This document shows, in pieces, positions 8,351 to 36,672 of a stretch of 37,935 nucleotides of DNA. The first letter of the stretch is position 1. Each line of letters starts with the position of its first letter. A model generated the notes under the pieces. It saw only the letters and a list, made by a program, of their open reading frames with translations, was not told the DNA's origin and made no database searches. This stretch comes from a virus. Taxonomy: Duplodnaviria; Heunggongvirae; Uroviricota; Caudoviricetes. The position numbers and the translations under genes were made by a program. The stretch is from positions 1-37,935 of IMG/VR virus record IMGVR_UViG_2909298281_000006; one strand, 5' to 3'.

Positions 8351-8949
8351 ATGAATGGATGCGCTCACTGAAACGGCACGAACGCCGGGCACTGATGCGT
8401 TCGCTGCGTGACAAACAGGCAAAAAACAGCAGTGATGAAATGCAGAACTGGACACAGAGCCGCAAACAGCCACAGCCTTTGCCTGATAACCACGAGTTAC
8501 TCGCTAAAGAATGGCGGGAGTCTGCTGAATCTCTCGGCCTGCATATCGGTGAACAGCAGATGCAGCACCTGTTACGGGGCGGCAGTCTGTACGTTGGCGG
8601 CAGCATCATTACACCGCAGGGATTTGAAATTGTACGCAAACCGGATACCCGCCCGGACAGCCGAATCACGCAGCTCTGGCAACGCCTGAGTCGTAATCAC
8701 GGCGTAAGCAGCACGGAGATCCGCCATAACCCGGTCGCCAGCTATCTGGAACAACTAGAGGCATCAGACCCTGAAGCCGCCGCACGCCTGGCATCCACAC
8801 TTCAGCAAGACCAGAACACCATGAAAACACCAGTTACCGTACTTTCTGACATGCTGCGCGCCATCCGCGACGCAGAGCACGCACAGAGAATCAATGAAAC
8901 CACTAAACATGCTCGCAAAAAAATCAGTTTATTGCATCGAACACGATAG
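8347..8949 (+). CDS. Hypothetical protein (200 aa), translationally coupled to A
   Basis: Start overlaps the A stop (ATGA); position of the small post-A ORF in P2. Confidence 0.55.
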   Translation: MNEWMRSLKRHERRALMRSLRDKQAKNSSDEMQNWTQSRKQPQPLPDNHELLAKEWRESAESLGLHIGEQQMQHLLRGGSLYVGGSIITPQGFEIVRKPDTRPDSRITQLWQRLSRNHGVSSTEIRHNPVASYLEQLEASDPEAAARLASTLQQDQNTMKTPVTVLSDMLRAIRDAEHAQRINETTKHARKKISLLHRTR

Positions 8950-8961
8950 AAATATAGAGCT

Positions 8962-8989
8962 AAGGCCGCCCTAGGAATAAGGAGGCCTT
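8962..8989. terminator. Hairpin between convergent A operon and cargo operon
   Basis: AAGGCC...GGCCTT inverted repeat at the convergence point. Confidence 0.35.
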
Positions 8990-8994
8990 GAAAA

Positions 8995-9804
8995 TCAACC
9001 TATCTTCTTATGAAGTAAAATTAATTTCTGTATTAATTTGGAATGAAACATAGATATATCAGAAATTCTTATTTCATTAGGCGAGTCTATATGATTGGAA
9101 ACTTCTTCCTCCAAGGAGTCACAAATACTTTCTAGATTTTCAATATCTGCATTTAATTCTGGAAAACTATTAAACAAATATAATGAATCCCGTAACTCTC
9201 CTAGTTTTGGTAAAAGAGTATTACTGAATACACTAAGAAACTCCTCTTCTGATAATGCCATGGAGTTTTTAAAACTTTGCACAACATCGAATGCCAACCC
9301 ATTAATTTTAGGCATAATTACTTCTCTTACCCAATATCCTTCATTAATAGCTTCTTTACGTTCTTTTCTATGTTGAACATAAGGAATAACAAAGGATGAA
9401 ACTAAGGCAAATAAAGAGATGCCAATAGAAATCCACTCTGGACCATTTTCCGGAACCTTTACAATATTATATATATCATGGGAATTTGGAACATCTTTGA
9501 AATAATTAGCAAATAAATCTTTTTTGTTATCCCTTGCCAGAGATAACTTATGAAAGGTGTCGTTTGCCTTTTCACAAAACATCAAGCCATCATTCGGGTT
9601 TCCGGATAACAAAAACGGTGATGATATACCACTAAGTCCTGAATCGGAAATATAAAAAGGCGTGTTTGGATAAAGTGACTCATTACATTCAATGTTTTCT
9701 TTATTGGAAAAATCTGTCACAGAGCAAGCTGCGGGGAATATAAAAAAAATGACAGACAGCGCTGTCATTTTGATTTGAAAAATATTTTTAAAAGAAGGGA
9801 ACAT
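8995..9804 (-). CDS. Cargo gene 3: bitopic membrane protein (N-terminal signal/anchor plus one central TM), candidate effector
   Basis: 269 aa; hydrophobic N-terminus MTALSVIFFIFPAACS, central TM WISIGISLFALVSSFVIPYV, acidic C-terminal domain; AGGAGAGG upstream; start overlaps the upstream gene by 17 nt; AT-rich. Confidence 0.7.
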   Translation of the reverse strand: MFPSFKNIFQIKMTALSVIFFIFPAACSVTDFSNKENIECNESLYPNTPFYISDSGLSGISSPFLLSGNPNDGLMFCEKANDTFHKLSLARDNKKDLFANYFKDVPNSHDIYNIVKVPENGPEWISIGISLFALVSSFVIPYVQHRKERKEAINEGYWVREVIMPKINGLAFDVVQSFKNSMALSEEEFLSVFSNTLLPKLGELRDSLYLFNSFPELNADIENLESICDSLEEEVSNHIDSPNEIRISDISMFHSKLIQKLILLHKKIG

Positions 9805-10132
9805 TTTTATGTAAGCCTCTCCTTACAGCTCTATCTAATTCAGAAAGCATACCTTCTTTATATTCACGACCATCAAGTACAGTGCGACTATAAAATTCGC
9901 TAGGCGAAGAAAATTTCGGCAAAACCGTTTCAAGCATACCTAGAAAGTATGAGCTTGATACAACAATTCCCTTGGGGATCAATAGATATAATCTATCATT
10001 ACTGGTTGTGCAAAATTTCCCTATATTAAAGTAATCATAGGCCTGGCGCCCATTAGAACGTCCAGCAAAAAGTTTCTTGTTACTATCTTTTACTAACTTA
10101 TTGAAATCTATGGTGATGTCAGCCATTTTCAT
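9788..10132 (-). CDS. Cargo gene 2: small STAS-like / anti-sigma-factor-antagonist-like protein (tentative)
   Basis: 114 aa; ITIDFNKLVKDS and GIVVSSSYFLGML resemble the STAS/SpoIIAA DSSG region (from memory); 10-nt gap to the upstream GHKL gene stop. Confidence 0.6.
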   Translation of the reverse strand: MKMADITIDFNKLVKDSNKKLFAGRSNGRQAYDYFNIGKFCTTSNDRLYLLIPKGIVVSSSYFLGMLETVLPKFSSPSEFYSRTVLDGREYKEGMLSELDRAVRRGLHKNVPFF

Positions 10133-10142
10133 GTACCTGTCC

Positions 10143-11522
10143 TCAAGTTCGCTGGGTGGCGTTTTCTGGTAGAGGAAAACGAATATTGATCATAACTCCA
10201 GGAAATCGAGCATCCTTCATACGCTTAAGATAGTTGCGATCCGGTTCAGATTCAAGCCCTACATCATTAAAAGGGTAAGTAAAAATGTCACTTTCCTCGT
10301 CATTAACCAACCTTTGCTTTAATTTATATGATCCATCAAAGTTAATATGAGTACTACCAGATATTAAAGTCATTTTTATCCCACCTTTAATATCTCTTCC
10401 CATTTTTTTAAGATTATCATGCATATCTTGAAATAACTTCAATAATTCAATTGTTCCGGTGCCAGAACTGTCAGTTTCTTTCTCGTTTTTACAACTCACC
10501 CGCCCTTGCAAGGCCGCTACTGTTGTTAATCCTTCCTTAAACATACCCTTTTTCTTAATATGCTTATTTATGTATGGATTAACTTGTTGACTTAATGAAA
10601 AATGATCCTCAGGTAAATTATCAAAAGTTTCGCTGATAGTTTTCCCAAAATTGAAAACAGCCAACTCACATATGGGGTTTCGTACGTTATTATTAACAAA
10701 ACCTCTCAAATACCAGCGTGGGCGTTGCTCTAACCCACAATGCCGCTCCGCATTATCAAGGAGTTCCCCCATGCAGGAAGTTAAATGCTTTTCTGCCTCA
10801 TGTACAAGTTTTAAATTATGATCATTTAAGCATTCGTTTATGTATGCGGTAAATTTTTCAGCAGTGACATTTTTTCTGTCATGGGCAAAGGCAGAAGCAT
10901 TCTCCTTTCCGATACTATCAGCAGAGAAGATTCGTTTCTTCGGATTCGCTTTTTTCGATGCTTCAGTAGAGTCCAGAACTTTACCTGGTGCAGCATTACT
11001 AATCTCTTTTACAAGCCCGACATCCCTGATAATTTCAAGATACTGTTCATCTTTAGGGTAGATACCATTAATCTGAATCATCGTATCTTTGAAATTTATA
11101 TTACTTTGCCTTGCTGCTGTAAGAGCAACACCTAATAGACACTCAAGACCAAGACAGTGTTTTTTGTTTTTCTTGTAATCAAAAATATATGATTTCCATT
11201 TACCTCTTGCAATTAATTTTGTGGCTGCACTAATAAATAGCAGAGATTTCTCTGGATTGTCATATAAGTCAAAATATTTAGGTATTAATATCTTCTCTGC
11301 GTCACGACGAAGAATTGATGAGTCATACTCTTTTATAATCGATATATTTTCAATGAACGTAGCGACTTGGTTTTGGACAGGAGTTGTTTCATCGGAAAAA
11401 CGAAGACTACCATTTTTCTCTTGCGCAGGCTTTTTTTTCTTAGCTCTCTCAACGCTACGAAGAAATCGCAACCATCCACGTAAAAAGGTTCTTTTAGAAT
11501 CTTCTTTATTGATTTTTTTCAT
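10143..11522 (-). CDS. Cargo gene 1: GHKL-superfamily ATPase / putative protein kinase
   Basis: Track ORF runs to TTG 11618; ATG at 11522 (MKKINKED) preferred. N-box-like ELLDNAERH and G2-like SSGTGTIELL; the N-terminal ~230 aa have no motif I recognise. Confidence 0.65.
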   Translation of the reverse strand: MKKINKEDSKRTFLRGWLRFLRSVERAKKKKPAQEKNGSLRFSDETTPVQNQVATFIENISIIKEYDSSILRRDAEKILIPKYFDLYDNPEKSLLFISAATKLIARGKWKSYIFDYKKNKKHCLGLECLLGVALTAARQSNINFKDTMIQINGIYPKDEQYLEIIRDVGLVKEISNAAPGKVLDSTEASKKANPKKRIFSADSIGKENASAFAHDRKNVTAEKFTAYINECLNDHNLKLVHEAEKHLTSCMGELLDNAERHCGLEQRPRWYLRGFVNNNVRNPICELAVFNFGKTISETFDNLPEDHFSLSQQVNPYINKHIKKKGMFKEGLTTVAALQGRVSCKNEKETDSSGTGTIELLKLFQDMHDNLKKMGRDIKGGIKMTLISGSTHINFDGSYKLKQRLVNDEESDIFTYPFNDVGLESEPDRNYLKRMKDARFPGVMINIRFPLPENATQRT

Positions 11523-11601
11523 TTCCAAATGTTCCTGCAAAGTTAACGTAGCCCACAAGGCGCTAAGTATACTTTCTGCTATATTTTTTTCACTATACAA
11601 A

Positions 11602-11628
11602 TGCACAATAGTGCACAAATTTGCACAA
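11602..11628. repeat. Three direct TGCACAA repeats with exact 10-bp phasing upstream of the cargo operon (fourth copy at 11694-11700)
   Basis: Read directly: TGCACAA at 11602-11608, 11612-11618, 11622-11628. Confidence 0.6.
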
Positions 11629-23261: not shown

Positions 23262-25811
23262 ATGAGTACCACAACACGTAAATTTAAAACCGTTATCACC
23301 GATACGGGTGCAAAAAAATTAGCTCAGGCAGCCGCGCCAGATGGTAAGCCTGTCCGCCTGACTCATATGGCCGTGGGCGACGGTGGCGGCACGTTGCCCA
23401 CACCAGACAGTAAGCAGACCCGTCTGGTGCATGAGGTGTGGCGACATACTGTTAATCGCGTCATCCTGGACGCAACACATCAGAACCGCATTATTGCGGA
23501 GCTGGTTATTCCTCCTGAAACGGGCGGATTCTGGATCCGGGAAATTGGTGTATTTGATGAGCACGGCGATTTAATCGCGGTGGGCAATACTGCCGAAAGT
23601 TACAAGCCAGCCGTTGCCGAAGGGTCCGGTCGTGCACAAACATTTCGCACCATTCTGACCGTATCCAGCACTGCCACCGTGGCGCTTACCGTGGATAACA
23701 CCATGGTGATGGCCACAGTGGATTACGTGGATGACAAACTGAAAGAGCATGAACAGTCACGACGTCACCCGGACGCCTCGCTGACCGCAAAAGGCTTTGT
23801 TCAACTCAGTAGCGCCACTAACAGCGTGTCTGAAACGCAGGCTGCAACGCCGAAAGCAGTAAAGGCCGCGTATGATCTTGCTAACGGTAAATATACTGCG
23901 CAGGATGCCACCACAGCGCGAAAAGGCCTTGTCCAGCTCAGTAGCGCCACCAACAGCACGTCTGAAACGCTGGCGGCAACGCCAAAGGCAGTAAAATCAG
24001 CCTATGACAATGCAGAGAAACGTCTGCAGAAAGACCAGAACGGCGCTGATATACCCGATAAGGGACGCTTCCTGAACAACATTAACGCGGTCAGTAAAAC
24101 AGACTTTGCTGATAAGCGTGGTATGCGTTATGTGCGGGTTAACGCTCCTGCAGGTGCAACATCTGGAAAATATTACCCTGTTGTTGTTATGCGTTCTGCT
24201 GGCTCAGTAAGCGAACTGGCATCAAGGGTCATTATCACCACGGCAACGCGAACCGCAGGCGATCCGATGAATAACTGCGAGTTTAACGGATTTGTTATGC
24301 CTGGTGGCTGGACTGACAGGGGGCGTTATGCTTATGGAATGTTCTGGCAATATCAAAACAATGAACGAGCCATCCACTCAATAATGATGAGTAATAAGGG
24401 CGATGATTTGCGCTCTGTGTTCTATGTTGATGGCGCTGCTTTCCCTGTTTTTGCGTTTATCGAAGATGGCCTGTCAATATCCGCACCTGGTACTGATCTC
24501 GTTGTTAATGATACGACCTATAAGTTTGGGGCAACAAATCCGGCGACTGAATGTATCGCGGCGGACGTTATCCTTGATTTTAAGAGTGGGCGTGGTTTTT
24601 ATGAGTCTCATTCGTTAATCGTTAACGATAACTTGTCGTGCAAAAAACTTTTTGCCACAGACGAAATTGTAGCGCGTGGTGGTAATCAGATTCGAATGAT
24701 AGGTGGGGAGTATGGGGCATTATGGCGTAATGATGGCGCTAAAACTTACCTGCTGCTTACCAATCAAGGTGATGTTTATGGTGGCTGGAATACATTAAGA
24801 CCGTTTGCTATTGATAACGCAACCGGCGAACTGGTTATTGGAACCAAACTGTCCGCAAGTCTGAACGGTAATGCATTAACAGCAACAAAGCTGCAAACGC
24901 CAAGACGGGTTTCTGGTGTTGAGTTTGATGGTTCCAAAGATATTACTTTAACCGCCGCGCATGTGGCTGCTTTTGCCAGAAGGGCAACGGATACATATGC
25001 CGATGCGGATGGTGGCGTTCCCTGGAATGCCGAATCAGGCGCTTATAATGTCACCCGCTCTGGCGACAGCTATATTCTGGTTAACTTCTATACCGGAGTC
25101 GGAAGTTGCCGGACCTTGCAGATGAAGGCGCATTACAGAAATGGTGGTCTGTTCTACCGTTCTTCAAGAGACGGTTATGGTTTTGAGGAAGACTGGGCAG
25201 AAATTTATACCTCGAAAAGTCTTCCACCGGAAAGCTACCCAGTCGGCGCACCAATCCCGTGGCCATCAGATACCGTTCCGTCTCGTTATGTCCTGATGCA
25301 GGGGCAGACTTTTGACAAATCTGCCTACCCGAAACTTGCAGTGGCTTATCCGTCAGGCGTTATTCCTGATATGCGTGGCTGGACGATTAAGGGCAAGCCC
25401 GCCAGTGGTCGTGCCGTATTGTCTCAGGAACAGGACGGCATTAAATCGCACACCCACAGCGCCAGCGCATCCAGTACTAATTTGGGGACGAAAACCACAT
25501 CGTCGTTTGATTACGGAACTAAATCCACAAATAACACCGGAGCACATACACACAACTTTGCTTACAACAATACTTCAGCATACGCAGAAACTCCCGGTAC
25601 CGGTGGTGGAATGCATGCAAGTAACACAAGCAAGACAGCAAGTAATCGTGTATTAAGCGCAGGAGCTCATGCTCACACAGTAGCAATAGGTGCGCATACA
25701 CATACGCTCGCTATTGGTTCGCATACACACACCATTACCATTGCCGCTTATGGCAACGCGGAAAACACCGTAAAAAACATCGCATTTAACTATATTGTGA
25801 GGCTTGCATAA
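23262..25811 (+). CDS. H: Tail fibre protein H
   Basis: 849 aa; two copies of [24 protein letters not shown]; C-terminal tail-collar-like PDMRG segment and HTH-triplet His-rich tip. Confidence 0.85.
23793..24007 (+). repeat. Two ~83-bp direct repeats (period 132 bp) inside H encoding the tail-fibre repeat
   Basis: Read directly: 23793-23875 and 23925-24007 are highly similar. Confidence 0.6.
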
Positions 25812-26410
25812 TGGCATTCAGAATGAGTGAACAACCACGAACCATAAAAATTTATAATCTGCTGGCCGGAACCAATGAATTTATTGGTGAAGGTGATACA
25901 TACATTCCACCTCATACAGGTCTACCTGCAAATAGTACTGATATTGCTCCGCCAGATATTCCAGCTGGCTTCGTGGCTATTTTCAACAGTGATGAGGCGT
26001 CCTGGCATCTCGTTGAAGATCATCGTGGTAAAACGGTTTATGACGTGGCTTCCGGCGACGCGTTATTTATTTCTGAACTGGGTCCGTTACCGGAAAATGT
26101 TACCTGGTTGTCGCCGGAAGGGGAATATCAGAAGTGGAACGGCATAGCCTGGGTGAAGGATACGGAAGCAGAAAAACTGTTCCGGAAACGGGAGGCGGAA
26201 GAAACAAAAAACAGCCTCATGCAGGTAGCCAGTGAGCATATTGCGCCGCTTCAGGATGCTGCAGATCTGGAAATTGCAACGGAGGAAGAAATCTCGTTGC
26301 TGGAAGCATGGAAAAAGTATCGGGTATTGCTGAACCGTGTTGATACATCAAGTGCACCGGATATTGAGTGGCCTGCTTCCCCAGTGGAATCAAGGAGTAA
26401 ACAAGCATAA
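25811..26410 (+). CDS. G: Tail fibre assembly chaperone
   Basis: 199 aa immediately after H with ATGA-type overlap; typical tail fibre assembly protein position. Confidence 0.8.
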
Positions 26411-26503
26411 GGCTTTCATTTCAAACCATTGTAGTCCAGTTTTTTGTATAGTACCCTGCTCATTTCGAATGACATGAGTGATTTGGAATTTCAGGGTGCC
26501 ATT

Positions 26504-27682
26504 ATGAATGTTATTTCATCATTAAAACAGCTTAACAGACAGCGAAATATTAAAACAAAAAAGATAAAGACGAAGGCCAGACTGGCATTTCTAAAAATGC
26601 GATACAGAAGGAAAACATCATTACAGCCGGATAGTTATAAAACAGTGTGCATTTTCATGCACATGCAGGCCATTGGTGACGGCATCGTTACCTCAGGGTT
26701 TATTAAACAACTTCAAGAATCCGGCATGGTGGTATATGTGATAGCACCTCCAAGAGTATCATTCCTCTTTACTGATATTGTTGGCGTGGATGCCTTTATT
26801 TCTTACGAGAAAAATAAATTTAACGAACTAAAAGCAAAGATAAAAAAACTGAATGTAGATCTTGTTGTTGACTTCTCAAATTTTGATAACACAGCGATAA
26901 CCAGATTGCAAACACTACATTTACTTAAACCTAAACACTCTATCTGTTTTAATCATCCTGCCGTAACTATTTTTGATACAAATATAATCGATAATCGTTC
27001 CATTCACTCATCTGAAAGAATGAAAAAAGTTTTATCTTTACTAAAGATAAAAAATAATGATTACGCTGCAGCGCTTAATTTTGACAACAAAATATATGAA
27101 CCAGCAAATATTGTTGCAAATGAATTCAGGAAGAAAAACAAAAAATTAGTTATATTTAACCCTTATGGCTCTCAGAATAGCAGAACCTTGTCTGATGAAC
27201 AGATAAACAAAGTACTAGCTTACCTTAACAACCTTAAGGGATATCACACAATAGTTTTTAACATGGGAAAACAGATTAATCACAATGGATTGGATAATGT
27301 GTCTCTATCTCCATTTTCTGATGCAGGATGTTCATTTGCATTGGTTCGCCATGCTGATTTTGTTATAACTGTAGATACTGCTATTGTACATTTAGCCAGT
27401 GCATTAAACATTAGACAATACTGTATATATAATAACAGAATGCATGAAGGAAAATTCGAAAATAATATAGTGTGGGGGCCAAACAGCAAATTAGCGACTC
27501 AACTCACCACATCCGAACATCTAAGGTCTGAAGGGGGCGACGATATGCATAAATTCGACATAATGCTTTTAATTAATGCTATCAAACAAGATTTGACAAA
27601 CGATATACCGAATTACCACTCGGATTTAGGTTGTAAAAATAGCTCCAGAAACCCAGAATTAGAAAGTAGCAAATCTTTATAA
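26504..27682 (+). CDS. Glycosyltransferase family 9-like (heptosyltransferase-like) cargo gene
   Basis: Track ORF starts at TTG 26444; ATG 26504 preferred. AIGDGIVTSGFIKQL and VDTAIVHLASALN resemble GT9 N- and C-terminal motifs (WaaC/WaaF-like D-S-G-x-x-HLAAAL); AT-rich. Confidence 0.65.
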   Translation: MNVISSLKQLNRQRNIKTKKIKTKARLAFLKMRYRRKTSLQPDSYKTVCIFMHMQAIGDGIVTSGFIKQLQESGMVVYVIAPPRVSFLFTDIVGVDAFISYEKNKFNELKAKIKKLNVDLVVDFSNFDNTAITRLQTLHLLKPKHSICFNHPAVTIFDTNIIDNRSIHSSERMKKVLSLLKIKNNDYAAALNFDNKIYEPANIVANEFRKKNKKLVIFNPYGSQNSRTLSDEQINKVLAYLNNLKGYHTIVFNMGKQINHNGLDNVSLSPFSDAGCSFALVRHADFVITVDTAIVHLASALNIRQYCIYNNRMHEGKFENNIVWGPNSKLATQLTTSEHLRSEGGDDMHKFDIMLLINAIKQDLTNDIPNYHSDLGCKNSSRNPELESSKSL

Positions 27683-27735
27683 CGTAGAAACCTCAACTGT
27701 TTTATCAGGACCTACGATATATTATATAACAACAA

Positions 27736-27769
27736 GCCGCCCATTACCCAATATGAGGGTATTGGCGGC
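27736..27769. terminator. Hairpin between convergent GT9 gene and U
   Basis: GCCGCCCATTACCC-AATATGA-GGGTATTGGCGGC imperfect inverted repeat. Confidence 0.4.
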
Positions 27770-27778
27770 AATATAAAA

Positions 27779-28273
27779 TCAGAACAGCCCTTTAACTGAA
27801 CTGGCCGCGCTGTTAAGAGATGATGTCACCTTATCTTTGAAGCCGGACAACATATCGCTGAACGATGAGGATTGCAGGCGCTCCCGCAAATCCTCATCAC
27901 AGCGTTCAAGAGTCAGTGAAAATTCTATCTTTTTCGCCTTACCGTAGCGATCAAACTCGGAACGGGTCGTATTCGTTTCAGTCAGCACATACATGCCGTA
28001 AATCTGCCCGACACCATCAATCAGAGGCCAGGGGCGTCCTGTATACGCCTGCGTGGTCAGCAGCGACAGGGACACTTCGCCACCTGTAATTTCAGGATAA
28101 AGCACACCAGAAAGAACGATGCGATCATCACCTGCACCGATATACTGCCAGCTTGCTGAACGGTTAACGCGTTCATTTTTCACATGCCGCCAGCTTTTGT
28201 TTTGCTGTAACTGTTGATGCGGCAATGTACGCAGCTCAAAAACAAACATGCCATAGATCATCATCATGGCCAT
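27779..28273 (-). CDS. U: Tail protein U
   Basis: 164 aa; similarity to remembered P2 gpU; downstream of T on the same strand. Confidence 0.8.
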   Translation of the reverse strand: MAMMMIYGMFVFELRTLPHQQLQQNKSWRHVKNERVNRSASWQYIGAGDDRIVLSGVLYPEITGGEVSLSLLTTQAYTGRPWPLIDGVGQIYGMYVLTETNTTRSEFDRYGKAKKIEFSLTLERCDEDLRERLQSSSFSDMLSGFKDKVTSSLNSAASSVKGLF

Positions 28274-28279
28274 GACTCC

Positions 28280-31096
28280 TCAATCTTTATCGTAAAAACT
28301 GCCACGTCCGGCACGGGCGCGCCGTTCCATCTCTGCCCTGACCATTTCGCCGACCAGTTTCGCCAGTTCGCGGGGATTCTGTGTAACAACGTTATGCAGA
28401 TGAACATGAATTTCACCACCAAATCCGGAGGCAACAGGCTCCCGGTTACGGGAAGTTACAGGAACTGATGCCACTGGAGATCGTATAGCCTCCGCCACCG
28501 GGCGGGAGCTGGCCGCAACAACAGGGACCAGCGCCGGAGGCAGCGGAGCCGGGACCACGGGTGTGATATTAATTGCGGGGGCAGGCTTACTGACCTGCGC
28601 AATCTTCCGCTCCTGCCACTCCCCACGAACAGCAAGTGCTCGGGGCAGGTTTTTAAAGACAATATCGCCGGGGCCAATGCGTTTTTTCGTCTCCTCAACC
28701 AGCTTACCTGTGTTATCAGCAATTTTGCTGAGTCTGCGCAGCGTACCGGTATTGCTGTCTGTGAGCGGTTTATTGTCTTTGGGGTTATCACCTCCGGTGC
28801 CATTGCCATTTTCCACAGGCTTCGGCGGATTGATTTTCGCCAGGTCCCCCTGAAGCAAGGCAACCTTGTCCTGAAGAATGGCCGCACGCTGTGCGTCTTC
28901 GATTTTCTTGCGCGCCCTTTCCGCTTCATCCGGAAGCACACCAAGCTTTTCAAGTATCCACGCCAGCGTATCCAGCAACATTTTTGCAGGTGTCAGAACA
29001 AGTTGTAACGCACCGCCAAGAACGTTACCGAATATCTCGCCAGCACTGGTACATTTATCCAGAGTTTCCTTGCTGGACTCCATCGGTGACAGCAGCGATT
29101 TAAACCAGTTAAACATCTGGCTGATCCCACTCCCGATTGCGTCAAAAACAGGACCAAACCGTTCAAAGGTTTCGCGCAACGGGGTCAGCCTTTCCATAAT
29201 CCCGCTGAACACCCCGGCAAAAAATGCCCTGATGGGATCCCAGTATTTCCAGATAAGAACGGCAGCTCCGGCAAGCGCAGCCACGATAAGACCAACCGGA
29301 CTGAACAGCGCCCCGATAGCGCCTCCCAGTAAAGAAACGGAACCCGTCACCATTCCCCATAGTGCTGGCAGAACCCTGACAGCATTCATTGATCCGGTCA
29401 GGAGGGAAAAACCAAGACGCAGTTTTGCCAGCGGGCCAGCAAGCACACCAATAGCCAACGACAACGAGCCGACCGTTGCAGTCATCGCCAGCAATGCCCC
29501 ACCTGCAATCAGTAGCTGGCGCGTCAGTGCCGGATGGGCCTGCGCCAGCGCCGTCACCTTTGATACCACCCGCGTGAGCCACTGCGTGACAGAACGCAGC
29601 GGACCGTCAATCAGATCTGCAATGCGGATGCGCAACCCTTCCCATGCACTGCCGAGTGATTTCAGATCGCCGTCAAGGTTGTTGGCCATAACCTTTGCTG
29701 TGCGTTCAGCCTCACCGCGCGCGCCTTCAAGTTCTTTTCTCAGTTTGGGTAAGGAGCCGTCACCCGCTGCATCAACGAGCGCCATAAACGATGTGAAAGC
29801 CTCTTCTCCGGCAATGTCCTTAAAGAACGATACCCGGTCAACTTCCCCGTATTTGCGGGTGGCTTTATAAAGGTCGGCCAGTACATCCTCCATCGGGCGC
29901 ATTTTGCCGTTCGCGTCAGAGACAGCCACACCCAGCTCTTTCAGCGCCTCTGCTGCCGCCTTTGGCGGTGATGCCAGACGAGCCAGGCTGGCACGCATTG
30001 CCGTCCCGGCATCACTCCCTCTGATGCCCATATTTGCCAGCACGCCCGCCATCGCAGCGGCCTGCTCCAGCGATATTCCCAGCTTACCCGCCACCGGACC
30101 TGCATATTTCATGGTTTCGCCCAGCGCGCGAAGGTCAGTGTTGGTACGGGTAAACGCCGCTGTAAGCGTGTCGCCAACCCGGTCCATCTGGTCAGCAGAG
30201 AGGCCGAACTGCGTCAGGATATTTGAGCCAATATCCGCCGTCTCGCCGAGATCCATACCGCCAGCCGTTGCCATGCTCAGCACGCCGGGAAGCGCAGCCT
30301 GAATGGCCTGCGGAGTAAAACCAGCCATTGCAAGAAATGCCTGTCCACTGGCGGCATCTCCAGCGGTGAACTGCGTTTCAGAGCCAAGTTTTAACGCCTG
30401 CTCACGCAGCGCCTTAAACTGTGGGCTGTTTTTGTCGATTCGCGTCAGTGCCTGAACGCGGGACATCTCTTTCCCGAACCCAATCGCGGGCTGCAAAAAA
30501 CGCCCGGCAGCATAGCCGCCCGCCGCTGCCGCACCTGTTGCCAGTGCACCACCTGTTTTCAGTTTTCCCGCGGTTTCCTGCGCGCGCGAATACCGCTCAC
30601 GCGCCCGCGTTACACGCGCAAGCGCCTGCCGTTCGCGTTCAAGCTGGTTGTTGTACTGTTCGGTGCGTCTGATGGCCTGTTGAATGGTGTTATCGCTGCC
30701 TGTCAGGGAAATGCCGTGGCGTTTCAGCTCTCCGCCAAGTTCCCGCATTTTCTGAATCTCCCGTGTGCGCGATTCATTCAGGCGTTCAAGCCGGGTGCTT
30801 AACTGCTGCATCAGCTTTTGTTGTTTTTCGCTGAGCACTGTACCCGTGTGTTGTAACTGATTAAGGGCGTTAAGCTGGCGTCGTGCTTTCAATATGCCAG
30901 CATCCGCTTTACTGACAGCGTCACGGGCGCGCTCAAATGAACGCGCCTGACGCTCGAGATTTTTGATCGCCCCCTGCGTTCGCTGGATGGAGTCACCAAA
31001 CTGCCCCATCAGGCGGCGGGCGTTTTCGGCAGGCCGGGTCAGCCTGTCAACGGCGCTGAAAGCGACCCGGATATCAAGAGTCTTCATTATCTGCAT
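28280..31096 (-). CDS. T: Tail tape measure protein
   Basis: 938 aa, Ala/Gly-rich with coiled-coil-like N-terminal half; position after E/E-prime. Confidence 0.85.
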   Translation of the reverse strand: MQIMKTLDIRVAFSAVDRLTRPAENARRLMGQFGDSIQRTQGAIKNLERQARSFERARDAVSKADAGILKARRQLNALNQLQHTGTVLSEKQQKLMQQLSTRLERLNESRTREIQKMRELGGELKRHGISLTGSDNTIQQAIRRTEQYNNQLERERQALARVTRARERYSRAQETAGKLKTGGALATGAAAAGGYAAGRFLQPAIGFGKEMSRVQALTRIDKNSPQFKALREQALKLGSETQFTAGDAASGQAFLAMAGFTPQAIQAALPGVLSMATAGGMDLGETADIGSNILTQFGLSADQMDRVGDTLTAAFTRTNTDLRALGETMKYAGPVAGKLGISLEQAAAMAGVLANMGIRGSDAGTAMRASLARLASPPKAAAEALKELGVAVSDANGKMRPMEDVLADLYKATRKYGEVDRVSFFKDIAGEEAFTSFMALVDAAGDGSLPKLRKELEGARGEAERTAKVMANNLDGDLKSLGSAWEGLRIRIADLIDGPLRSVTQWLTRVVSKVTALAQAHPALTRQLLIAGGALLAMTATVGSLSLAIGVLAGPLAKLRLGFSLLTGSMNAVRVLPALWGMVTGSVSLLGGAIGALFSPVGLIVAALAGAAVLIWKYWDPIRAFFAGVFSGIMERLTPLRETFERFGPVFDAIGSGISQMFNWFKSLLSPMESSKETLDKCTSAGEIFGNVLGGALQLVLTPAKMLLDTLAWILEKLGVLPDEAERARKKIEDAQRAAILQDKVALLQGDLAKINPPKPVENGNGTGGDNPKDNKPLTDSNTGTLRRLSKIADNTGKLVEETKKRIGPGDIVFKNLPRALAVRGEWQERKIAQVSKPAPAINITPVVPAPLPPALVPVVAASSRPVAEAIRSPVASVPVTSRNREPVASGFGGEIHVHLHNVVTQNPRELAKLVGEMVRAEMERRARAGRGSFYDKD

Positions 31097-31310
31097 TCCC
31101 GCTGCGAAGTGCCGCCCGCTCGCGCCAGCTAACCACTTCGCCGGGCGTCATCATGAAGATTTCGGCGGGCGACCAGTTAAAAATGGCGGCAATATCCGCC
31201 ACCAGATCTTCGATGTGCTCAAAGCACACCAGGGTGATTACGCTGCCGTCTCCTGCACGCTCTTCGCGCCAGAGTCTGGCTCGCTCATAAAATTTACAGC
31301 CACAGCGCAC
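31074..31310 (-). CDS. E-prime frame: C-terminal extension of the tail assembly chaperone, reached by -1 frameshift from E
   Basis: ORF in the -1 frame overlapping the E 3-prime end and the T 5-prime end; no independent ATG/SD. Confidence 0.55.
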   Translation of the reverse strand: MRCGCKFYERARLWREERAGDGSVITLVCFEHIEDLVADIAAIFNWSPAEIFMMTPGEVVSWRERAALRSGNADNEDS

Positions 31311-31612
31311 AACTGAATAAAATCGCGTGACGACATTTTTTTAATCATCACTTCATCCAGTCGTGGCGAGGTCACGCGAGGCAACAGCGTAAACATGGTA
31401 TCCGCTTTCAGATTCAGCACATCAGACAGCGACAGACCACGCAGGGATCCAGCCTGCTCAATAGCCCCGGTGATCTCCACATACGTGATTTTTTCGCCAC
31501 CACGCTCAATTGGTCGGGTCAGTTTTACGCCATGTTCGACAGCCATATCCTCACCTGCCGTCACATCATCCGCCACGGTGTTATTCCGGGTTTCAGTATC
31601 GATGTCTTTCAT
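31238..31612 (-). CDS. E: Tail assembly chaperone E
   Basis: 124 aa with a good SD (AAAGGAGAAAACTG ATG); position between FII and T. Confidence 0.7.
   Translation of the reverse strand: MKDIDTETRNNTVADDVTAGEDMAVEHGVKLTRPIERGGEKITYVEITGAIEQAGSLRGLSLSDVLNLKADTMFTLLPRVTSPRLDEVMIKKMSSRDFIQLCAVAVNFMSEPDSGAKSVQETAA
31289..31295 (-). other. Candidate -1 programmed frameshift heptamer A_AAU_UUU
   Basis: On the minus strand AAATTTT sits in the E frame as A AAT TTT and reads AAA TTT T in the E-prime frame, inside the E/E-prime overlap. Confidence 0.45.
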
Positions 31613-31667
31613 CAGTTTTCTCCTTTTCAGTCAGAGGCGACGCACTGCGCCGCCTGCATATTACTTA

Positions 31668-32180
31668 TCAGCCAAGCTCGAGCGCGGAACGGATACGGTC
31701 AGGCACAATGTCCTTGCCGTCCTTCCGGTAAATGAAGTTCAGCAGGTCAATCTCCCACAACGGGCGATCGTTAACACTCAGCTTGTAGTAGGTGTTTTTA
31801 ATGGCGTAAGTGTGTGATGTGGCTTCGCCCTGTTTGGCTTCCCCCATATCAATTTCCGTCACACGTCCGCGCATTGCGACTTCATACAGGTCGCTTTCTG
31901 CATCGGTGTAGTATTCACCCGCAAAACGCAGCAGCGTGCCGTCAATCGTGCCGCCATACTTAAGGAACAGCTCACGAACTGCGCCCCCCATGACAAAGCT
32001 CGCATCAAGCGCGGAGTCGTCCAGACCGAGATCAATACTTACCGCACCCATCATGCCACCACCCCGGTAGCTGTCGGTTTTGCGCGTCAGCTTAGGTAGA
32101 GTGACGGACGTCACCTTACCCACTTCGTTTTCACCATCCACAAACAGCGTAAAAAAGCGAAGATGTTTTGGTACAGCCAT
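31668..32180 (-). CDS. FII: Tail tube protein
   Basis: 170 aa; follows the sheath gene with a 1-nt overlap. Confidence 0.85.
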   Translation of the reverse strand: MAVPKHLRFFTLFVDGENEVGKVTSVTLPKLTRKTDSYRGGGMMGAVSIDLGLDDSALDASFVMGGAVRELFLKYGGTIDGTLLRFAGEYYTDAESDLYEVAMRGRVTEIDMGEAKQGEATSHTYAIKNTYYKLSVNDRPLWEIDLLNFIYRKDGKDIVPDRIRSALELG

Positions 32181-33364
32181 CAGGCACCTCCCAGCACCGC
32201 AAATGCGGGACCAAAGAATTCATCAGTAAACGACTGGTAAAGCTCCATGTCTTCCAGCGGGGGAACGGGCGTATATTTGTAGCGAATACGCACGCGCCCC
32301 TGACGTAAATTCGTGGTGCCGTTATCCACCACGTCATACCAGCACGACGCCCCAATCAGTTTCCCGGCAGTAACCAGTGAATCCAGTTTTGCCCTGATGG
32401 CACTGATAACATCCTTCACGTTCGCAGGCGTCAGTGGACTGTCGATGGTTTCAAACTGCGCTTCCGCAATTGAATCAGCCAGCACCTGTGCGGTTCGGGT
32501 ATACACCTCAAAGATGTAGGCGTTCGTTTCCGGTGTGCGGTTGCCCCAGAAGCGGAACCCGTTGCGACGAATAATGGTCGTGATTTCTTTGTTGTTGAGG
32601 CTGTTGGCATCACTGTCTTCGGCCTGCAACGACCAGAACACATGCCTGGACATCCCCAGCACATTTTTAACCGGAACGTTGGACAGCGATTTGTGCCAGC
32701 CCTGTTCATGGTCAATGTACGCACGAAGGCCGCACGCATAGGCAGGCGCGGGGAACGTTTCGTTTTTGCCACTTTTCGGGTTGTAGGCGATGAAGTCCGG
32801 CCATAAGAGCATCACCTCACGTTCGTTGAATTTCTGGCGGTAGGTAATCGCCTCAGCCATCGTGTTACAGCCGTGACATGAGGCATACACAAACGCGCGC
32901 AGTTTACCTGCAATCACGCACAGGGATTTTGTTACAGCCTCCGTGTCCAGCTCCGGCGCGGCCAGAATACGCGGACGGTATCCGATGCTTTCATCCTGCT
33001 CTGCAACAAGCAGCGCATACATCCCCGTATAGCTGCCGTCATCCTCAGAACCACCGATAACCAGTTGATCCTGCGTCTTTCCGTCTTCTTCTTTGTGTTC
33101 AGCCACGCGAACGACGATCACCTTTGTGCTCACCTGGTCTGCGATGGCCTTAAGCGCACGATAAAGCGTCCCCGTTGTTCCGCATTTTCCCAGCACGTCA
33201 TTGACGCGGGTCAGCAGTGTGGGCTTGTTCAGCGGGAACAGCTTCGCGTCCGCATCATCCGCCGTTGCCACGATACCGATAACGCTGGAATCAACATCGT
33301 TAATCGCTGTTACCAGGTCGGTATTTTCCGTAACACGGGCACCATGAAAACGAGTTTCACTCAT
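32180..33364 (-). CDS. FI: Contractile tail sheath protein
   Basis: 394 aa; FPLNKP, GWHK, IRRNGFRFWGNRT and YKYTPVPPLE match remembered P2 gpFI. Confidence 0.9.
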   Translation of the reverse strand: MSETRFHGARVTENTDLVTAINDVDSSVIGIVATADDADAKLFPLNKPTLLTRVNDVLGKCGTTGTLYRALKAIADQVSTKVIVVRVAEHKEEDGKTQDQLVIGGSEDDGSYTGMYALLVAEQDESIGYRPRILAAPELDTEAVTKSLCVIAGKLRAFVYASCHGCNTMAEAITYRQKFNEREVMLLWPDFIAYNPKSGKNETFPAPAYACGLRAYIDHEQGWHKSLSNVPVKNVLGMSRHVFWSLQAEDSDANSLNNKEITTIIRRNGFRFWGNRTPETNAYIFEVYTRTAQVLADSIAEAQFETIDSPLTPANVKDVISAIRAKLDSLVTAGKLIGASCWYDVVDNGTTNLRQGRVRIRYKYTPVPPLEDMELYQSFTDEFFGPAFAVLGGA

Positions 33365-33520
33365 AGCTTCAGCCCCTTGTATCCGTTAAATGATTCGGCA
33401 ACAATCATCACCCACCACGCGCGTAATCTCACCCCTGCGCCGTTCTCCCGACCCGGCGACAACAAAAAGCAGTAACCCCCTCCGCACGCACATGCGACCA
33501 TGCCGCACAGGGAGGGAAAG

Positions 33521-34630
33521 ATGACCGACACCACCATGCAATTGCTCAGTCAGAGCACAGACCCCGTGAAAATGCCGGATTTTGATATTCTCGCGGAGGG
33601 TAAAACGCTGTCAGGCGTGGCAGAGCGCCTGATGAGCCTGTCACTGACCGACAACCGGGGATTTGAAGCGGACCAGCTCACCATCACGCTGGATGATGCG
33701 GATGGTCAGTTGCAGCTACCGCCACGGGGCGCGCGCCTGACGGTTCTCATTGGCTGGAAAGGCGAACCGCTGACAGAAAAAGGCTCTTACATTGTCGATG
33801 AAATCGCACACGAAGGACCGCCGGACAGGCTGACTGTTTCAGCCAGAAGCGCAGATTTTCGGGATGAATTTAACGTTAAACGTGAGGTGTCCTGGCATGA
33901 TGTGACCGTTGAGCGTGTGGTATCCGCCATCGCTCATCGGTACGGTCTGAAACCGCAAATCAGCGAAATGCTGATGCATATCGAAATCGACCACGCCGAC
34001 CAGACCGAAGAAAGTGACATGTCCTTCCTTACGCGCATGGCGGAAATGCTGGGCGCAATCACCACGGTAAAAAGCGGTAATCTGTTATTCATCATGCCCG
34101 GCGGTGGCGTGAACGCACAGGGCCAGCCGTTGCCATCGTTCGCCATCACACGCAGCAGCGGCGATCGCCATCAGTTCCGCATTGCTGACCGCGAGGCGTA
34201 TACGGGGGTACGCGCTTACTGGCTTGATCTTAATTACGGGAAAAAGAAAAAAGTCAGCGTGAAACGCCGCAAACCGCCAAAACCGAAAAAAGAGAAAAGC
34301 AGCAGCCGTGAAGGTGATTATATGGAAGGCGCGGAAGGCAATGTGTTTGTGTTACGCAAGACTTATCAGAACGAGCAGGCAGCAAGACGCGCAGCGGCGG
34401 CAAAGTGGCAACAACTACAACGCGGAGCCGCATCATTCTCCATCACACTGGCACGCGGACGCGCAGGACTCTACCCCGAAATGCATGGCACGGTAACAGG
34501 ATTTAAAAGCGAGATTGATAATCAGGACTGGATTATTGCAAAAGCCGAGCACACCATTGATAACAGCGGCTTTACCACTCAGCTTGAGCTTGAAGCAAAA
34601 ATCCCGGAATGGATAGCGGAAACAGAGTGA
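33521..34630 (+). CDS. D: Tail protein D (late control D family)
   Basis: ATG 33521 after GGAGGG; RGFEAD, EGPPDRLT, SADFR, SWHD, GDRHQF, GDY and ASFSITLA motifs match remembered P2 gpD. Confidence 0.85.
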   Translation: MTDTTMQLLSQSTDPVKMPDFDILAEGKTLSGVAERLMSLSLTDNRGFEADQLTITLDDADGQLQLPPRGARLTVLIGWKGEPLTEKGSYIVDEIAHEGPPDRLTVSARSADFRDEFNVKREVSWHDVTVERVVSAIAHRYGLKPQISEMLMHIEIDHADQTEESDMSFLTRMAEMLGAITTVKSGNLLFIMPGGGVNAQGQPLPSFAITRSSGDRHQFRIADREAYTGVRAYWLDLNYGKKKKVSVKRRKPPKPKKEKSSSREGDYMEGAEGNVFVLRKTYQNEQAARRAAAAKWQQLQRGAASFSITLARGRAGLYPEMHGTVTGFKSEIDNQDWIIAKAEHTIDNSGFTTQLELEAKIPEWIAETE

Positions 34631-35263: not shown

Positions 35264-35441
35264 AGGAAACCGCGACGGGGAGCAATCCCCCGGTCAATCA
35301 GTTGCCAGAGTAAGGTCGATAAGGCATCCTGTCTCATTCTATACCAGCTAATCAATTGACACATATCAATAAAAAGCCTGATAAAATCAAAATGTTTTGT
35401 TACAAATGTCAGCTAGTAGAGAGCCAAAGGAGGCAGATTAT

Positions 35442-35774
35442 ATGGCATTAATCAAATGTCCTGAATGCCAGAAAGAGGTGATCGATTCAGTATTGTCTTG
35501 CCCTGCTTGTGGCAAACAACTGAAAAAACTTAAACGTTCATTTTTTGGAGAACTCATTAAGTATTTTTTCATATTATTTAATATTTTTATAATCTACACG
35601 ATTTGTGTTGGGCTAAGAGAGGTTGGTGAAATAATAAACAACGCCACATCCGATGCCGAAAAAGCCGGTACAGTTATTGGTACGGGCTTAGGTTTAATTG
35701 CTATTGGAGGCTTATGGGTTATTGGCAATATCATTATCGGAAATTTAGTATTTCTTACTAAACCAAAGGGATAA
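35442..35774 (+). CDS. Zinc-ribbon membrane protein (110 aa)
   Basis: ATG 35442 after AAAGGAGG; CPEC...CPACG zinc ribbon followed by two hydrophobic helices; AT-rich. Confidence 0.55.
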   Translation: MALIKCPECQKEVIDSVLSCPACGKQLKKLKRSFFGELIKYFFILFNIFIIYTICVGLREVGEIINNATSDAEKAGTVIGTGLGLIAIGGLWVIGNIIIGNLVFLTKPKG

Positions 35775-35778
35775 CAAA

Positions 35779-36672
35779 ATGAAAAATATGATTATTTCTA
35801 TAGGTGCATCATTTATATCAATTAGTGTGCTACCTGCTCACGCAGCAACTGAGCATAATAACTTTAAGTCATCACTCCAGTGCCGAGCAATAGAAAATAA
35901 TAAAGAAAGACTTTCTTGTTATGATAAGTCAATACAACCGACTCGAACGACAGTTGCTGAAAAATTCGAAAGCAGAGATCAATGCCCTGATGAGAAAGAT
36001 GATGACAGACGTTTATCTTGTTATGACCGTTTTTTTTCTCCAACATTTACTCCGCCTGTAAGCTCAAAATCTAAATCGAAACAGCTAGTAACAACAGAGG
36101 CTCAGCAACCAAATCTTTCTGAGATATCTAAATGCCGAGCAGAAACCGATAAAGAAACTAGAGTAAACTGCTACGATAAACTATTTCCACAGGAAAAAGT
36201 TGCGCAATCTAAATCAAAATTAGAGAAAGCCACAGACACAGGAAAATGGCACACATCCATTACTACATCGCCAATTGATGATTCGAAAAATGTAATTTTA
36301 TCGTTAGAAAGTGATGATTATATAAGAACTCCATTTGGAGAAGCGGTTACCCCTACTCTGTTTATAGCTTGCCGAGAAAAGAAAACCGAAGTATTTCTTA
36401 ATTGGGATGTATATTTAGGCCTTGAACAAACCAGCATGCTGTATCGCCTTGATAAACAGAAAGCAGTTGAGCGAAACTGGCTAGTATCTACAGATACAAA
36501 GGCTGTTTTTTATAAAGGCAATGACATTAACTTCATCAGAAAACTAGCCAACTCAAACAAAATGTATGCAAAAATAACCCCTTATAATGAAAGCCCTGTA
36601 AGTGCAACTTTCAATTTAAACGGCCTGTCAACCACGCTAAAACCGCTTCAAGAAGCCTGTAACTGGAAATAG
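35779..36672 (+). CDS. Secreted protein with three Cys-containing repeats
   Basis: Signal peptide MKNMIISIGASFISISVLPAHA; three repeats C-x7/8-R-[LV]-x-C-Y-D-[KR] (RLSCYDK, RLSCYDR, RVNCYDK); AT-rich. Confidence 0.6.
   Translation: MKNMIISIGASFISISVLPAHAATEHNNFKSSLQCRAIENNKERLSCYDKSIQPTRTTVAEKFESRDQCPDEKDDDRRLSCYDRFFSPTFTPPVSSKSKSKQLVTTEAQQPNLSEISKCRAETDKETRVNCYDKLFPQEKVAQSKSKLEKATDTGKWHTSITTSPIDDSKNVILSLESDDYIRTPFGEAVTPTLFIACREKKTEVFLNWDVYLGLEQTSMLYRLDKQKAVERNWLVSTDTKAVFYKGNDINFIRKLANSNKMYAKITPYNESPVSATFNLNGLSTTLKPLQEACNWK

What the first reader, a model, noticed from the sequence alone, without database searches (positions are those of the whole stretch)
26444..27682. GT9-family glycosyltransferase as cargo between tail fibre chaperone G and the tail genes
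An AT-rich gene sits where P2 carries the Z/fun moron. Its product has AIGDGIVTSGFIKQL near the N-terminus and VDTAIVHLASALN near the C-terminus, which resemble the conserved motifs of GT9 heptosyltransferases (WaaC/WaaF/WaaQ) and the related autotransporter heptosyltransferases. A prophage-borne GT9 enzyme could remodel LPS core or glycosylate a surface protein, giving lysogenic conversion or superinfection exclusion. It is flanked by terminator-like hairpins, so is probably independently expressed.
Basis: partly seen in the sequence, partly recalled or inferred. Interest (0 to 1): 0.55.

Follow-up and report, generated by a model that had tools for sequence, protein, structure and literature searches.

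The report
Prophage-borne WaaU-like LPS core glycosyltransferase
A P88/P2-like E. coli prophage carries, right after its tail-fibre genes, an intact sugar-transferase gene of the family that builds the core of lipopolysaccharide; it most likely re-decorates the host's LPS core, an ordinary kind of lysogenic conversion but an uncharacterised member acting on the core rather than the O-antigen.

Summary

The closest characterised relative is E. coli K-12 WaaU, the outer-core heptosyltransferase IV (hhalign 99.4%, E 8e-22, full length). The autotransporter heptosyltransferases are more distant.

- **Homolog contexts.** Homologs at 26-55% identity sit in chromosomal LPS loci of Serratia, Vibrio, Gilliamella, Orbus and Citrobacter. 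Others follow tail-fibre genes in three other Providencia prophage types.
- **Distribution in E. coli.** 49 of 5426 complete genomes carry the gene. 45 of these 49 have an R3-type core and none has K-12 waaU.
- **Retention.** The gene stays intact, with dN/dS about 0.2, in decayed prophages.

Best reading: a lysogenic-conversion enzyme that adds a sugar, probably heptose, to the LPS outer core. Corrections: the phage is P88-like, not P2 proper. The slot normally holds an invertible fibre segment and an invertase. Independent expression is not supported. RefSeq already annotates the gene as GT9. Interest is moderate.

The parts
26504..27682 (+). GT9 glycosyltransferase gene (392 aa plus stop), WaaU-like subfamily. 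It has an N-terminal basic helix (residues 3-33; 14 K/R and 1 D/E in the first 45 residues), two Rossmann domains, and a disordered tail (371-392).
26444..26503 (+). In-frame upstream extension of the longest ORF (TTG start). It is probably 5' leader, not coding. It overlaps a hairpin at 26451-26499 whose 3' arm covers the AGGGTG ribosome-binding site.
   Evidence: The alignment shows that the family N-terminus starts at the ATG. Fold z-score -2.4.
26382..27775 (+). The GT9 cassette proper. This DNA is neither lambda-tfa-like on its left nor P88-backbone-like on its right.
   Evidence: The lambda tfa match ends at 26381. P88 homology resumes at 27776. No flanking repeats.
27736..27769 (-). GC-rich hairpin (GCCGCC...GGCGGC) between the convergent GT9 and gpU stop codons. 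A T-rich tail is present only on the minus strand, so it probably terminates the tail operon and may act in both directions.
   Evidence: Folds on both strands, z -3.8 and -2.8. It lies inside the cassette, not in the P88 backbone.
24008..25811 (+). Distal (receptor-binding) part of tail fibre gene H (whole gene 23262-25811). It is the left part of the 24008-27775 block that replaces the P88 fibre-tip and invertase module.
   Evidence: Break-point mapping against P88 and P88_4B11. The Providencia prophage fibre C-terminus is 33% identical.
25811..26410 (+). Tail fibre assembly protein (G/Tfa). It is 93.7% identical in DNA to phage lambda tfa and lies immediately upstream of the GT9 gene.
   Evidence: Pfam Caudo_TAP 146.8 bits. 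Lambda match.
27779..28273 (-). gpU tail protein, the last gene of the inverted FI-FII-E-T-U tail module and the right-hand neighbour of the cassette.
   Evidence: Pfam Phage_P2_GpU 133 bits. Same layout in P88.

Best explanation
The gene encodes a cytoplasmic GT-B glycosyltransferase of family GT9, probably held at the inner membrane by its basic N-terminal helix. It belongs to the branch that contains E. coli K-12 WaaU, the heptosyltransferase IV that decorates the LPS outer core. In a lysogen it would act during core assembly on the inner face of the inner membrane. It would add one extra residue to the host's outer core, which is R3-type in 92% of carriers. The donor is most likely ADP-L-glycero-D-manno-heptose. 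The altered core is then exported as usual and changes the cell surface. The likely benefit is reduced adsorption of core-dependent phages, including relatives of the prophage, with possible side effects on O-antigen ligation.

Shown here: GT9 identity, an intact set of catalytic motifs, the WaaU-like affinity, LPS-locus contexts of homologs, the core-type association, and retention under purifying selection.

Inferred: the acceptor, the donor sugar, expression in the lysogen, and phage exclusion as the selected benefit.

For: **Motifs.** G58, D59, R227, D291, T292 and H296 are invariant in 34 sequences. They align with the GD motif of WaaQ and WaaU and with the VDTGLSH motif of WaaC.

**Closest characterised relative.** K-12 WaaU matches over 307 columns, including the N-terminal helix (probability 99.4%, E 7.9e-22). 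WaaQ gives 4.7e-7. WaaC matches only the C-terminal motif. WaaF is not significant.

**Homologs in LPS loci.**
- Inside a Serratia-type waa cluster, 55% identity.
- Vibrio waa clusters.
- Gilliamella loci with three or four GT8 genes and a second WaaU-like gene.
- An Orbus locus with GT2, GT9 and EptA-like genes.
- The head of Citrobacter O-antigen loci.

**Mobile-element copies with other LPS enzymes as neighbours.** The neighbours are a GT25, a GT2 and an acetyltransferase-like ORF.

**Core-type association.** 45 of 49 carriers have the R3 marker, against 1364 of 5426 genomes overall (Fisher p 4e-23). Among genomes with the same prophage tail module but no GT9, 42% are R3 (p 1e-12). None of the 49 has K-12 waaU, where about 9 would be expected.

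**Retention.** The ORF is intact in badly decayed prophages, with dN/dS of 0.17-0.29.
Against: - No experiment bears on the gene, and no paper on it was found.
- The donor sugar cannot be read from sequence.
- The association tests are not corrected for phylogeny, and many carriers are clonal.
- At least one carrier lineage (AR_0128) has an R1 core.
- No promoter was identified, so expression in the lysogen is assumed. With no terminator after gene G, the gene may be read mainly with the late operon.
- The tail-fibre tip is lambda Stf-like. From general knowledge, Stf binds OmpC rather than LPS, which weakens a simple picture of the enzyme masking the phage's own receptor.
- The Citrobacter homologs sit at O-antigen loci, so a non-core glycan is a possible acceptor.
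Confidence: 0.6

Rival explanations
1. It modifies a surface glycan other than the LPS core, such as O-antigen, enterobacterial common antigen or a capsule. This would be classical seroconversion.
For: Homologs at 46-47% identity lie at the head of O-antigen-type loci in Citrobacter, next to galF-like, wzx and wzy-like genes. The Providencia prophage copies are paired with a GT2 or an acetyltransferase-like gene, as in seroconversion modules.
Against: The nearest characterised relative is the core enzyme WaaU. Closer homologs sit inside waa clusters. The association is with a core type (R3), across carriers from many different sources. From general knowledge, all characterised non-BAHT GT9 enzymes act on LPS core.
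Confidence: 0.15
2. It glycosylates the phage's own tail fibre or another virion protein during late gene expression, changing host range or immune recognition.
For: The gene directly follows tail-fibre or Tfa genes in four unrelated prophage types. It is on the same strand as H-G, with no terminator between and no promoter of its own detected. Fibre tip, Tfa and GT9 form one replacement block relative to P88.
Against: The gene stays intact under purifying selection where the fibre and Tfa genes are pseudogenes or deleted. Many homologs are chromosomal LPS genes with no phage nearby. The basic N-terminal helix shared with WaaU suggests membrane or LPS association.
Confidence: 0.08
3. It is a BAHT-type protein O-heptosyltransferase (like TibC or Aah) that modifies an autotransporter adhesin encoded elsewhere in the host.
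Confidence: 0.04
4. It is an intracellular anti-phage defence gene of the variable slot that acts on DNA or on a phage protein, not on the envelope.
For: It occupies a variable cargo slot of a P2-family prophage. Such prophages are known reservoirs of defence systems (PMC9122126).
Against: There is no PADLOC hit. The hotspot described in that paper is the one at 8995-11618, not this slot. The window contains no genes for DNA hypermodification. The homolog contexts are LPS loci.
Confidence: 0.05

Closest known systems
WaaU (RfaK) of E. coli K-12: ADP-heptose:LPS heptosyltransferase IV, family GT9
   Same: Full-length profile match that includes the unusual basic N-terminal helix (hhalign 99.4%, E 7.9e-22, 307 columns). 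Both have low GC: 31% for waaU and 34% for this gene. WaaU adds HepIV to the third outer-core glucose, which is the O-antigen attachment site (PMC13293308).
   Different: Only about 21% identical. About 100 clusters at 50% identity are closer to this family than WaaU is. The gene lies in a prophage, not in the waa operon. It is found in R3-core hosts and never together with waaU. Donor and acceptor are unproven.
Inner-core heptosyltransferases WaaC, WaaF and WaaQ (GT9)
   Different: Sequence similarity is weak: WaaQ E 4.7e-7, WaaC motif only, WaaF not significant. NCBIfam equivalog scores are far below their cut-offs. These enzymes lack the long N-terminal helix.
Bacterial autotransporter heptosyltransferases (BAHT: TibC, Aah)
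   Same: A distantly related GT-B fold. From general knowledge, they use ADP-heptose as donor.
Phage O-antigen seroconversion modules (gtrABC, oac and similar)
   Same: From general knowledge, these are prophage cargo that alter LPS and block adsorption of related phages. This is the same logic as proposed here.
   Different: Those systems act on the O-antigen, mostly in the periplasm, with GtrA, GtrB and GtrC-type proteins. Here a single cytoplasmic GT9 of the core-assembly type is present.
P88 / P88_4B11 (Xuanwuvirus) host-range slot, and P2 Z/fun
   Same: The same genomic slot, between the tail-fibre assembly gene and the tail genes. From general knowledge, P2 carries the T5-exclusion gene Z/fun at the analogous position.
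   Different: P88 has an invertible alternative fibre tip with its Tfa, plus an invertase, in that slot. There is no sequence relationship to the GT9 gene.
GT9 genes listed in Pseudomonas aeruginosa prophages (PMC10449497)
   Same: Prophage-borne GT9 genes listed alongside O-antigen acetylases as putative surface-modifying cargo.
   Different: Listed by annotation only. The host and phages are different, and homology to this family was not examined.

Membership tests
Glycosyltransferase family 9 (Pfam PF01075, CAZy GT9) | Profile match above the curated threshold | tested here: met
   26.9 bits against a gathering score of 22, E 3.7e-6, covering residues 226-332 of the 412-aa translation. RefSeq also names it a GT9 family protein.
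Glycosyltransferase family 9 (Pfam PF01075, CAZy GT9) | GT-B fold closest to solved GT9 enzymes | tested here: met
Glycosyltransferase family 9 (Pfam PF01075, CAZy GT9) | N-terminal Gly-Asp motif (WaaC Asp13 equivalent) and C-terminal Asp-Thr-x-x-x-His motif (WaaC Asp261/Thr262/His266 equivalents; residue roles taken from general knowledge of WaaC) | tested here: met
   G58, D59, D291, T292 and H296 are invariant in 34 sequences. They align to the WaaQ and WaaU GD motif and to WaaC VDTGLSH.
Glycosyltransferase family 9 (Pfam PF01075, CAZy GT9) | Glycosyl transfer from ADP-heptose (or another nucleotide sugar) to an acceptor | not testable with these tools
   Needs an enzyme assay.
WaaU-like outer-core heptosyltransferase IV | Full-length homology to WaaU, including the N-terminal extension | tested here: met
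   hhalign probability 99.4%, E 7.9e-22, 307 columns starting at WaaU residue 13. The cluster nearest to WaaU (P0131) was hit by the family profile at E 2.6e-33.
WaaU-like outer-core heptosyltransferase IV | Encoded in the waa (LPS core) gene cluster | tested here: not met
   The window gene lies in a prophage. Homologs of 26-55% identity are in waa clusters of Serratia and Vibrio. It is therefore not filed as WaaU itself.
WaaU-like outer-core heptosyltransferase IV | Adds L,D-heptose to a terminal outer-core glucose | not testable with these tools
   Indirect evidence only: 92% of carriers have an R3 core and none has waaU.
BAHT autotransporter heptosyltransferases (TibC/Aah) | Closest structural and sequence relatives are TibC or Aah | tested here: not met
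BAHT autotransporter heptosyltransferases (TibC/Aah) | Four-cysteine iron-finger motif (from general knowledge of the TibC structure) | tested here: not met
   No invariant or near-invariant cysteine in the family. The cysteines at 49, 148, 276, 307 and 377 form no CxxC pattern.
BAHT autotransporter heptosyltransferases (TibC/Aah) | Adjacent autotransporter substrate gene | tested here: not met
   None in the window or in any homolog context.
Catalogued anti-phage defence systems (PADLOC-DB 2.0) | Match to a defence-protein model | tested here: not met
   0 families at E <= 1.
Prophage lysogenic-conversion (moron) genes | Non-essential cargo with atypical composition, variably present among related prophages, and retained when the prophage decays | tested here: met
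   GC 33.7% against 50.9%. Present in 49 of about 700 to 1400 related prophages. Absent from P88 and from all deposited phage genomes. Intact in decayed prophages with dN/dS about 0.2.

The most novel reading that the evidence does not exclude
The fibre tip, its chaperone and the GT9 gene travel as one 'key plus lock-changer' cassette between unrelated myovirus lineages: the P88-like phage in E. coli, and E217-like and Mu-like prophages in Providencia. On this reading the phage imports a receptor-binding module together with an enzyme that converts the host's LPS core type. That would be core-level seroconversion, specific to R3-type cores in E. coli. It would give receptor-level superinfection immunity and might redirect O-antigen ligation.
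Probability: 0.3. Interest if true: 0.65.

Novelty: new member of a known kind. Interest (0 to 1): 0.42.

Why it matters
Phage-driven change of LPS is well known for O-antigens. As far as I know and could find, change of the core oligosaccharide by a prophage enzyme has not been described in E. coli. If this enzyme adds a residue to the R3 core, the type found in O157, O111 and many other strains, three things follow.

- It would create a core variant that waa-based core typing does not see.
- It could alter sensitivity to core-dependent phages and tailocins, which matters for phage therapy.
- It might affect O-antigen ligation and recognition of the core by antibodies.

The prediction is directly testable with one gene and standard LPS chemistry.

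Tried and rejected
- **PDB sequence searches.** Neither the single sequence nor the family profile gave a useful hit. WaaC appeared only at E 0.07, so fold comparison was needed.
- **Other profile libraries.** PADLOC gave nothing. PHROGs gave only a family of unknown function, phrog_36326. NCBIfam equivalogs were far below their cut-offs.
- **Deposited phage genomes.** There is no DNA match, and the only protein match is 23% identity in two Campylobacter phage records.
- **Signals for expression.** The sigma-70 promoter scan around the gene found no more sites than in shuffles. The P2 late-promoter-like pattern TGT-N12-ACA is not enriched, and none lies upstream.
- **Insertion signature.** No direct or inverted repeats flank the cassette.
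- **WaaK idea.** I first assumed the WaaK-type GlcNAc transferases were GT9 relatives. The R3 enzyme annotated as a GlcNAc transferase shows no relationship to the family and, by inspection of its sequence, looks like a GT4-type enzyme. That idea was dropped.
- **DNA glycosylation.** Rejected, because the window has no genes for hydroxymethyl-base synthesis.
- **AlphaFold-database fold search.** The library was unavailable.
- **Literature.** Searches found no study of this gene.

Full report
**1. What is there**

Its first 20 codons are not conserved. An alignment of the 34 known family members starts at the ATG at 26504 and then conserves a strongly basic stretch, LNRxRNIKTKKIK...YRKK. RefSeq uses the same start. 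The gene is therefore 26504-27682 and encodes 392 aa.

Its GC content is 33.7%, against 50.9% for the window. That is similar to E. coli's own outer-core gene waaU, at 31%. Upstream lies a tail-fibre assembly gene (Caudo_TAP, 146.8 bits). Downstream, on the opposite strand, lies gpU.

**2. Is it a GT9 enzyme?**

Yes. Four lines of evidence agree.

- Pfam PF01075 scores 26.9 bits against a gathering score of 22.
- An AlphaFold model built on the family alignment is confident (pLDDT 90, pTM 0.86). It shows a long N-terminal helix, two Rossmann domains and a disordered tail.
- Foldseek ranks the GT9 structures first: 3tov, WaaC and WaaF at E 7e-14 to 2e-11.

G58, D59, R227, D291, T292 and H296 are invariant across the family. 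They align with the GD motif of WaaQ and WaaU and with the VDTGLSH motif of WaaC. From general knowledge of WaaC, these correspond to Asp13, Asp261, Thr262 and His266.

**3. Which branch of GT9?**

A profile-profile comparison with the K-12 enzymes gave the following.

| K-12 enzyme | Result |
|---|---|
| WaaU | probability 99.4%, E 7.9e-22, 307 columns including the N-terminal helix |
| WaaQ | E 4.7e-7 |
| WaaC | only the C-terminal motif aligns |
| WaaF | not significant |

WaaU is the heptosyltransferase IV. It puts a fourth heptose on the third outer-core glucose, which is the O-antigen attachment site in K-12 (PMC13293308).

The R3-core enzyme that RefSeq annotates as a GlcNAc transferase shows no relationship to this family. 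By inspection of its sequence it looks like a GT4-type enzyme.

A profile search of 1.84 billion cluster representatives found 119 clusters at E < 1e-30. The WaaU-like cluster appears at 2.6e-33, and roughly a hundred uncharacterised clusters are closer. These come from Gilliamella, Orbus, E. fergusonii and Edaphovirga.

The family is thus an uncharacterised sister group within a broad WaaU-like clade. The BAHT reading is disfavoured for three reasons: the poorer structural match, the absence of any conserved cysteine set, and the absence of an autotransporter neighbour.

**4. Context of homologs**

Chromosomal copies sit in LPS loci.

- A 55%-identical homolog lies inside a Serratia-type waa cluster: waaL, waaQ, waaG, waaP, waaB, two GT8 genes, the homolog, then waaA and coaD.
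- Vibrio homologs lie between coaD/mutM and waaA/waaF.
- Gilliamella homologs lie among three or four GT8 genes and a second WaaU-like gene.
- The Orbus homolog lies beside a GT2, a GT9 and two EptA-like genes.
- Citrobacter homologs lie at the head of the O-antigen locus.

Mobile copies are also common.

- In Providencia stuartii, P. alcalifaciens and P. rettgeri the gene directly follows the tail fibre or Tfa gene of three different prophage types. In two of these it is followed by an acetyltransferase-like ORF or a GT2.
- Other copies lie after a portal gene, near dinI, or beside an integrase and a GT25.
- The P. stuartii prophage fibre C-terminus, Tfa and GT9 are 33%, 44% and 52% identical to those of the window.

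**5. The phage and the slot**

The tail region is 95-97.5% identical to P88, P88_4B11 and Citrobacter phage phiSM, all of genus Xuanwuvirus. These phages share the inverted FI-FII-E-T-U module, so the inversion is normal for the genus.

In P88 and P88_4B11 the slot between Tfa and gpU holds an inverted alternative fibre tip with its Tfa, plus a DNA invertase. Homology to P88 stops at 24008, inside gene H, and resumes at 27776. The distal fibre, Tfa and GT9 therefore form one 3.8-kb replacement block.

The Tfa gene is 93.7% identical to lambda tfa as far as 26381. This leaves 26382-27775 as the GT9 cassette. No deposited phage genome carries the gene.

**6. Expression signals**

No convincing promoter and no G-proximal terminator were found. 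The one strong hairpin (27736-27769) has its T-tract on the minus strand. Read-through from the H-G late operon is at least as likely, and expression in the lysogen is unproven.

**7. Population evidence**

The gene is in 49 of 5426 complete E. coli genomes, always on the chromosome. I used concatenated queries to score a second marker in the same genomes.

| Comparison | Result |
|---|---|
| Carriers that also have K-12 waaU | 0 of 49 (waaU is in about 1033 genomes; about 9 expected) |
| Carriers with the R3 marker gene | 45 of 49 |
| All genomes with the R3 marker | 1364 of 5426; Fisher OR 35, p 4e-23 |
| Genomes with the same gpU-T tail module but no GT9 that are R3 | 42%; OR 15, p 1e-12 |

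The closest carrier, MB06101, has a typical R3 waa cluster. One exception, AR_0128, has an R1-type cluster. These tests are not corrected for phylogeny.

In MB06101, AR_0128 and L6-21 the prophage is heavily decayed. In L6-21 only a Tfa pseudogene and a gpU fragment flank the gene. Yet the GT9 ORF is intact in all three, and dN/dS among the alleles is 0.17-0.29. This argues for a benefit to the lysogen and against a role in virion assembly.

**8. Interpretation**

The best-supported mechanism is lysogenic conversion at the level of the LPS core. A WaaU-like GT9 adds a residue, probably heptose, to the outer core of mainly R3-type hosts.

The confidence is layered.

| Claim | Confidence |
|---|---|
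| GT9 enzyme | about 0.95 |
| LPS core is the acceptor | about 0.7 |
| Heptose is the donor sugar | about 0.5 |
| Phage exclusion is the selected benefit | about 0.4 |

The rivals are modification of another surface glycan, fibre glycosylation, BAHT-type protein heptosylation and intracellular defence. Each is scored in its own section.

**9. Novelty**

RefSeq already labels the protein as GT9, and PHROGs holds it as a family of unknown function. Prophage GT9 genes have been listed in Pseudomonas. No paper on this gene or on its proposed role was found.

It is a new, uncharacterised member of a known kind: a prophage-borne LPS-modifying enzyme. What stands out is the core-type association and the linkage to the fibre module.

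Noticed in passing
window 8995-11618 (minus strand): A second AT-rich island (31-39% GC) with three ORFs of 269, 114 and 491 aa, between the replication gene and the portal gene. This is the P2 old/tin defence hotspot described in PMC9122126. The ORFs have no Pfam or PADLOC hit. The island is complete in 23 E. coli genomes, where all three are annotated as hypothetical proteins. That paper mentions a validated three-gene system without recognisable domains that protects against P1. I did not check whether it is the same system.
   Followed up: partly
window 27779-33364 against 23262-26410 and 33500-34630: The tail module FI-FII-E-T-U is inverted relative to H-G and D-ogr. This looked like a rearrangement but is the normal layout of P88-like (Xuanwuvirus) phages.
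   Followed up: yes
window 25811-26381: The tail-fibre assembly gene and the end of the fibre gene are 93.7% identical in DNA to phage lambda tfa and stf. A lambdoid side-fibre tip has been grafted onto a P2-family baseplate fibre.
   Followed up: partly
window 35397-36672: A third AT-rich stretch (35-37% GC) after ogr, with a zinc-ribbon ORF and an ORF annotated as 'type VI secretion system-associated protein TagO'. ORFs of the same lengths (333 and 894 nt), at the same position after ogr, are included in the P88_4B11 phage genome record; I did not compare the sequences. The stretch may therefore be prophage cargo near the attachment site rather than host DNA.
   Followed up: no
E. coli CH468, NZ_CM166354.1 4426772-4429150 (hit H24): In this one carrier the match to the GT9 gene is split into two pieces and an ISKpn26 transposase is annotated within its span, so the gene appears to be interrupted by the insertion sequence. 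This is the only apparently disrupted copy among the 49 carriers.
   Followed up: no
L003 11167-11733 (minus strand); L076 7144-8118 (minus strand); L075 3557-4309 (minus strand): Mobile copies of the family in Providencia and in a metagenome contig are paired with a second surface-glycan enzyme: a hexapeptide-repeat acetyltransferase-like ORF, a GT2 and a GT25 respectively. This suggests two-enzyme conversion modules.
   Followed up: partly
protein P0163: A 2,789-aa protein in the representative library matches the family profile in six separate stretches around the VDTxxxH motif region. This is an odd repetitive architecture and I did not examine it.
   Followed up: no
L022 (Symbiopectobacterium purcellii) 8001-9085: The 50%-identical homolog, 75% identical in DNA to the Serratia waa copy, sits alone among several copies of two IS-like ORFs near smpB. 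This suggests recent mobilisation of a waa gene by transposition.
   Followed up: no
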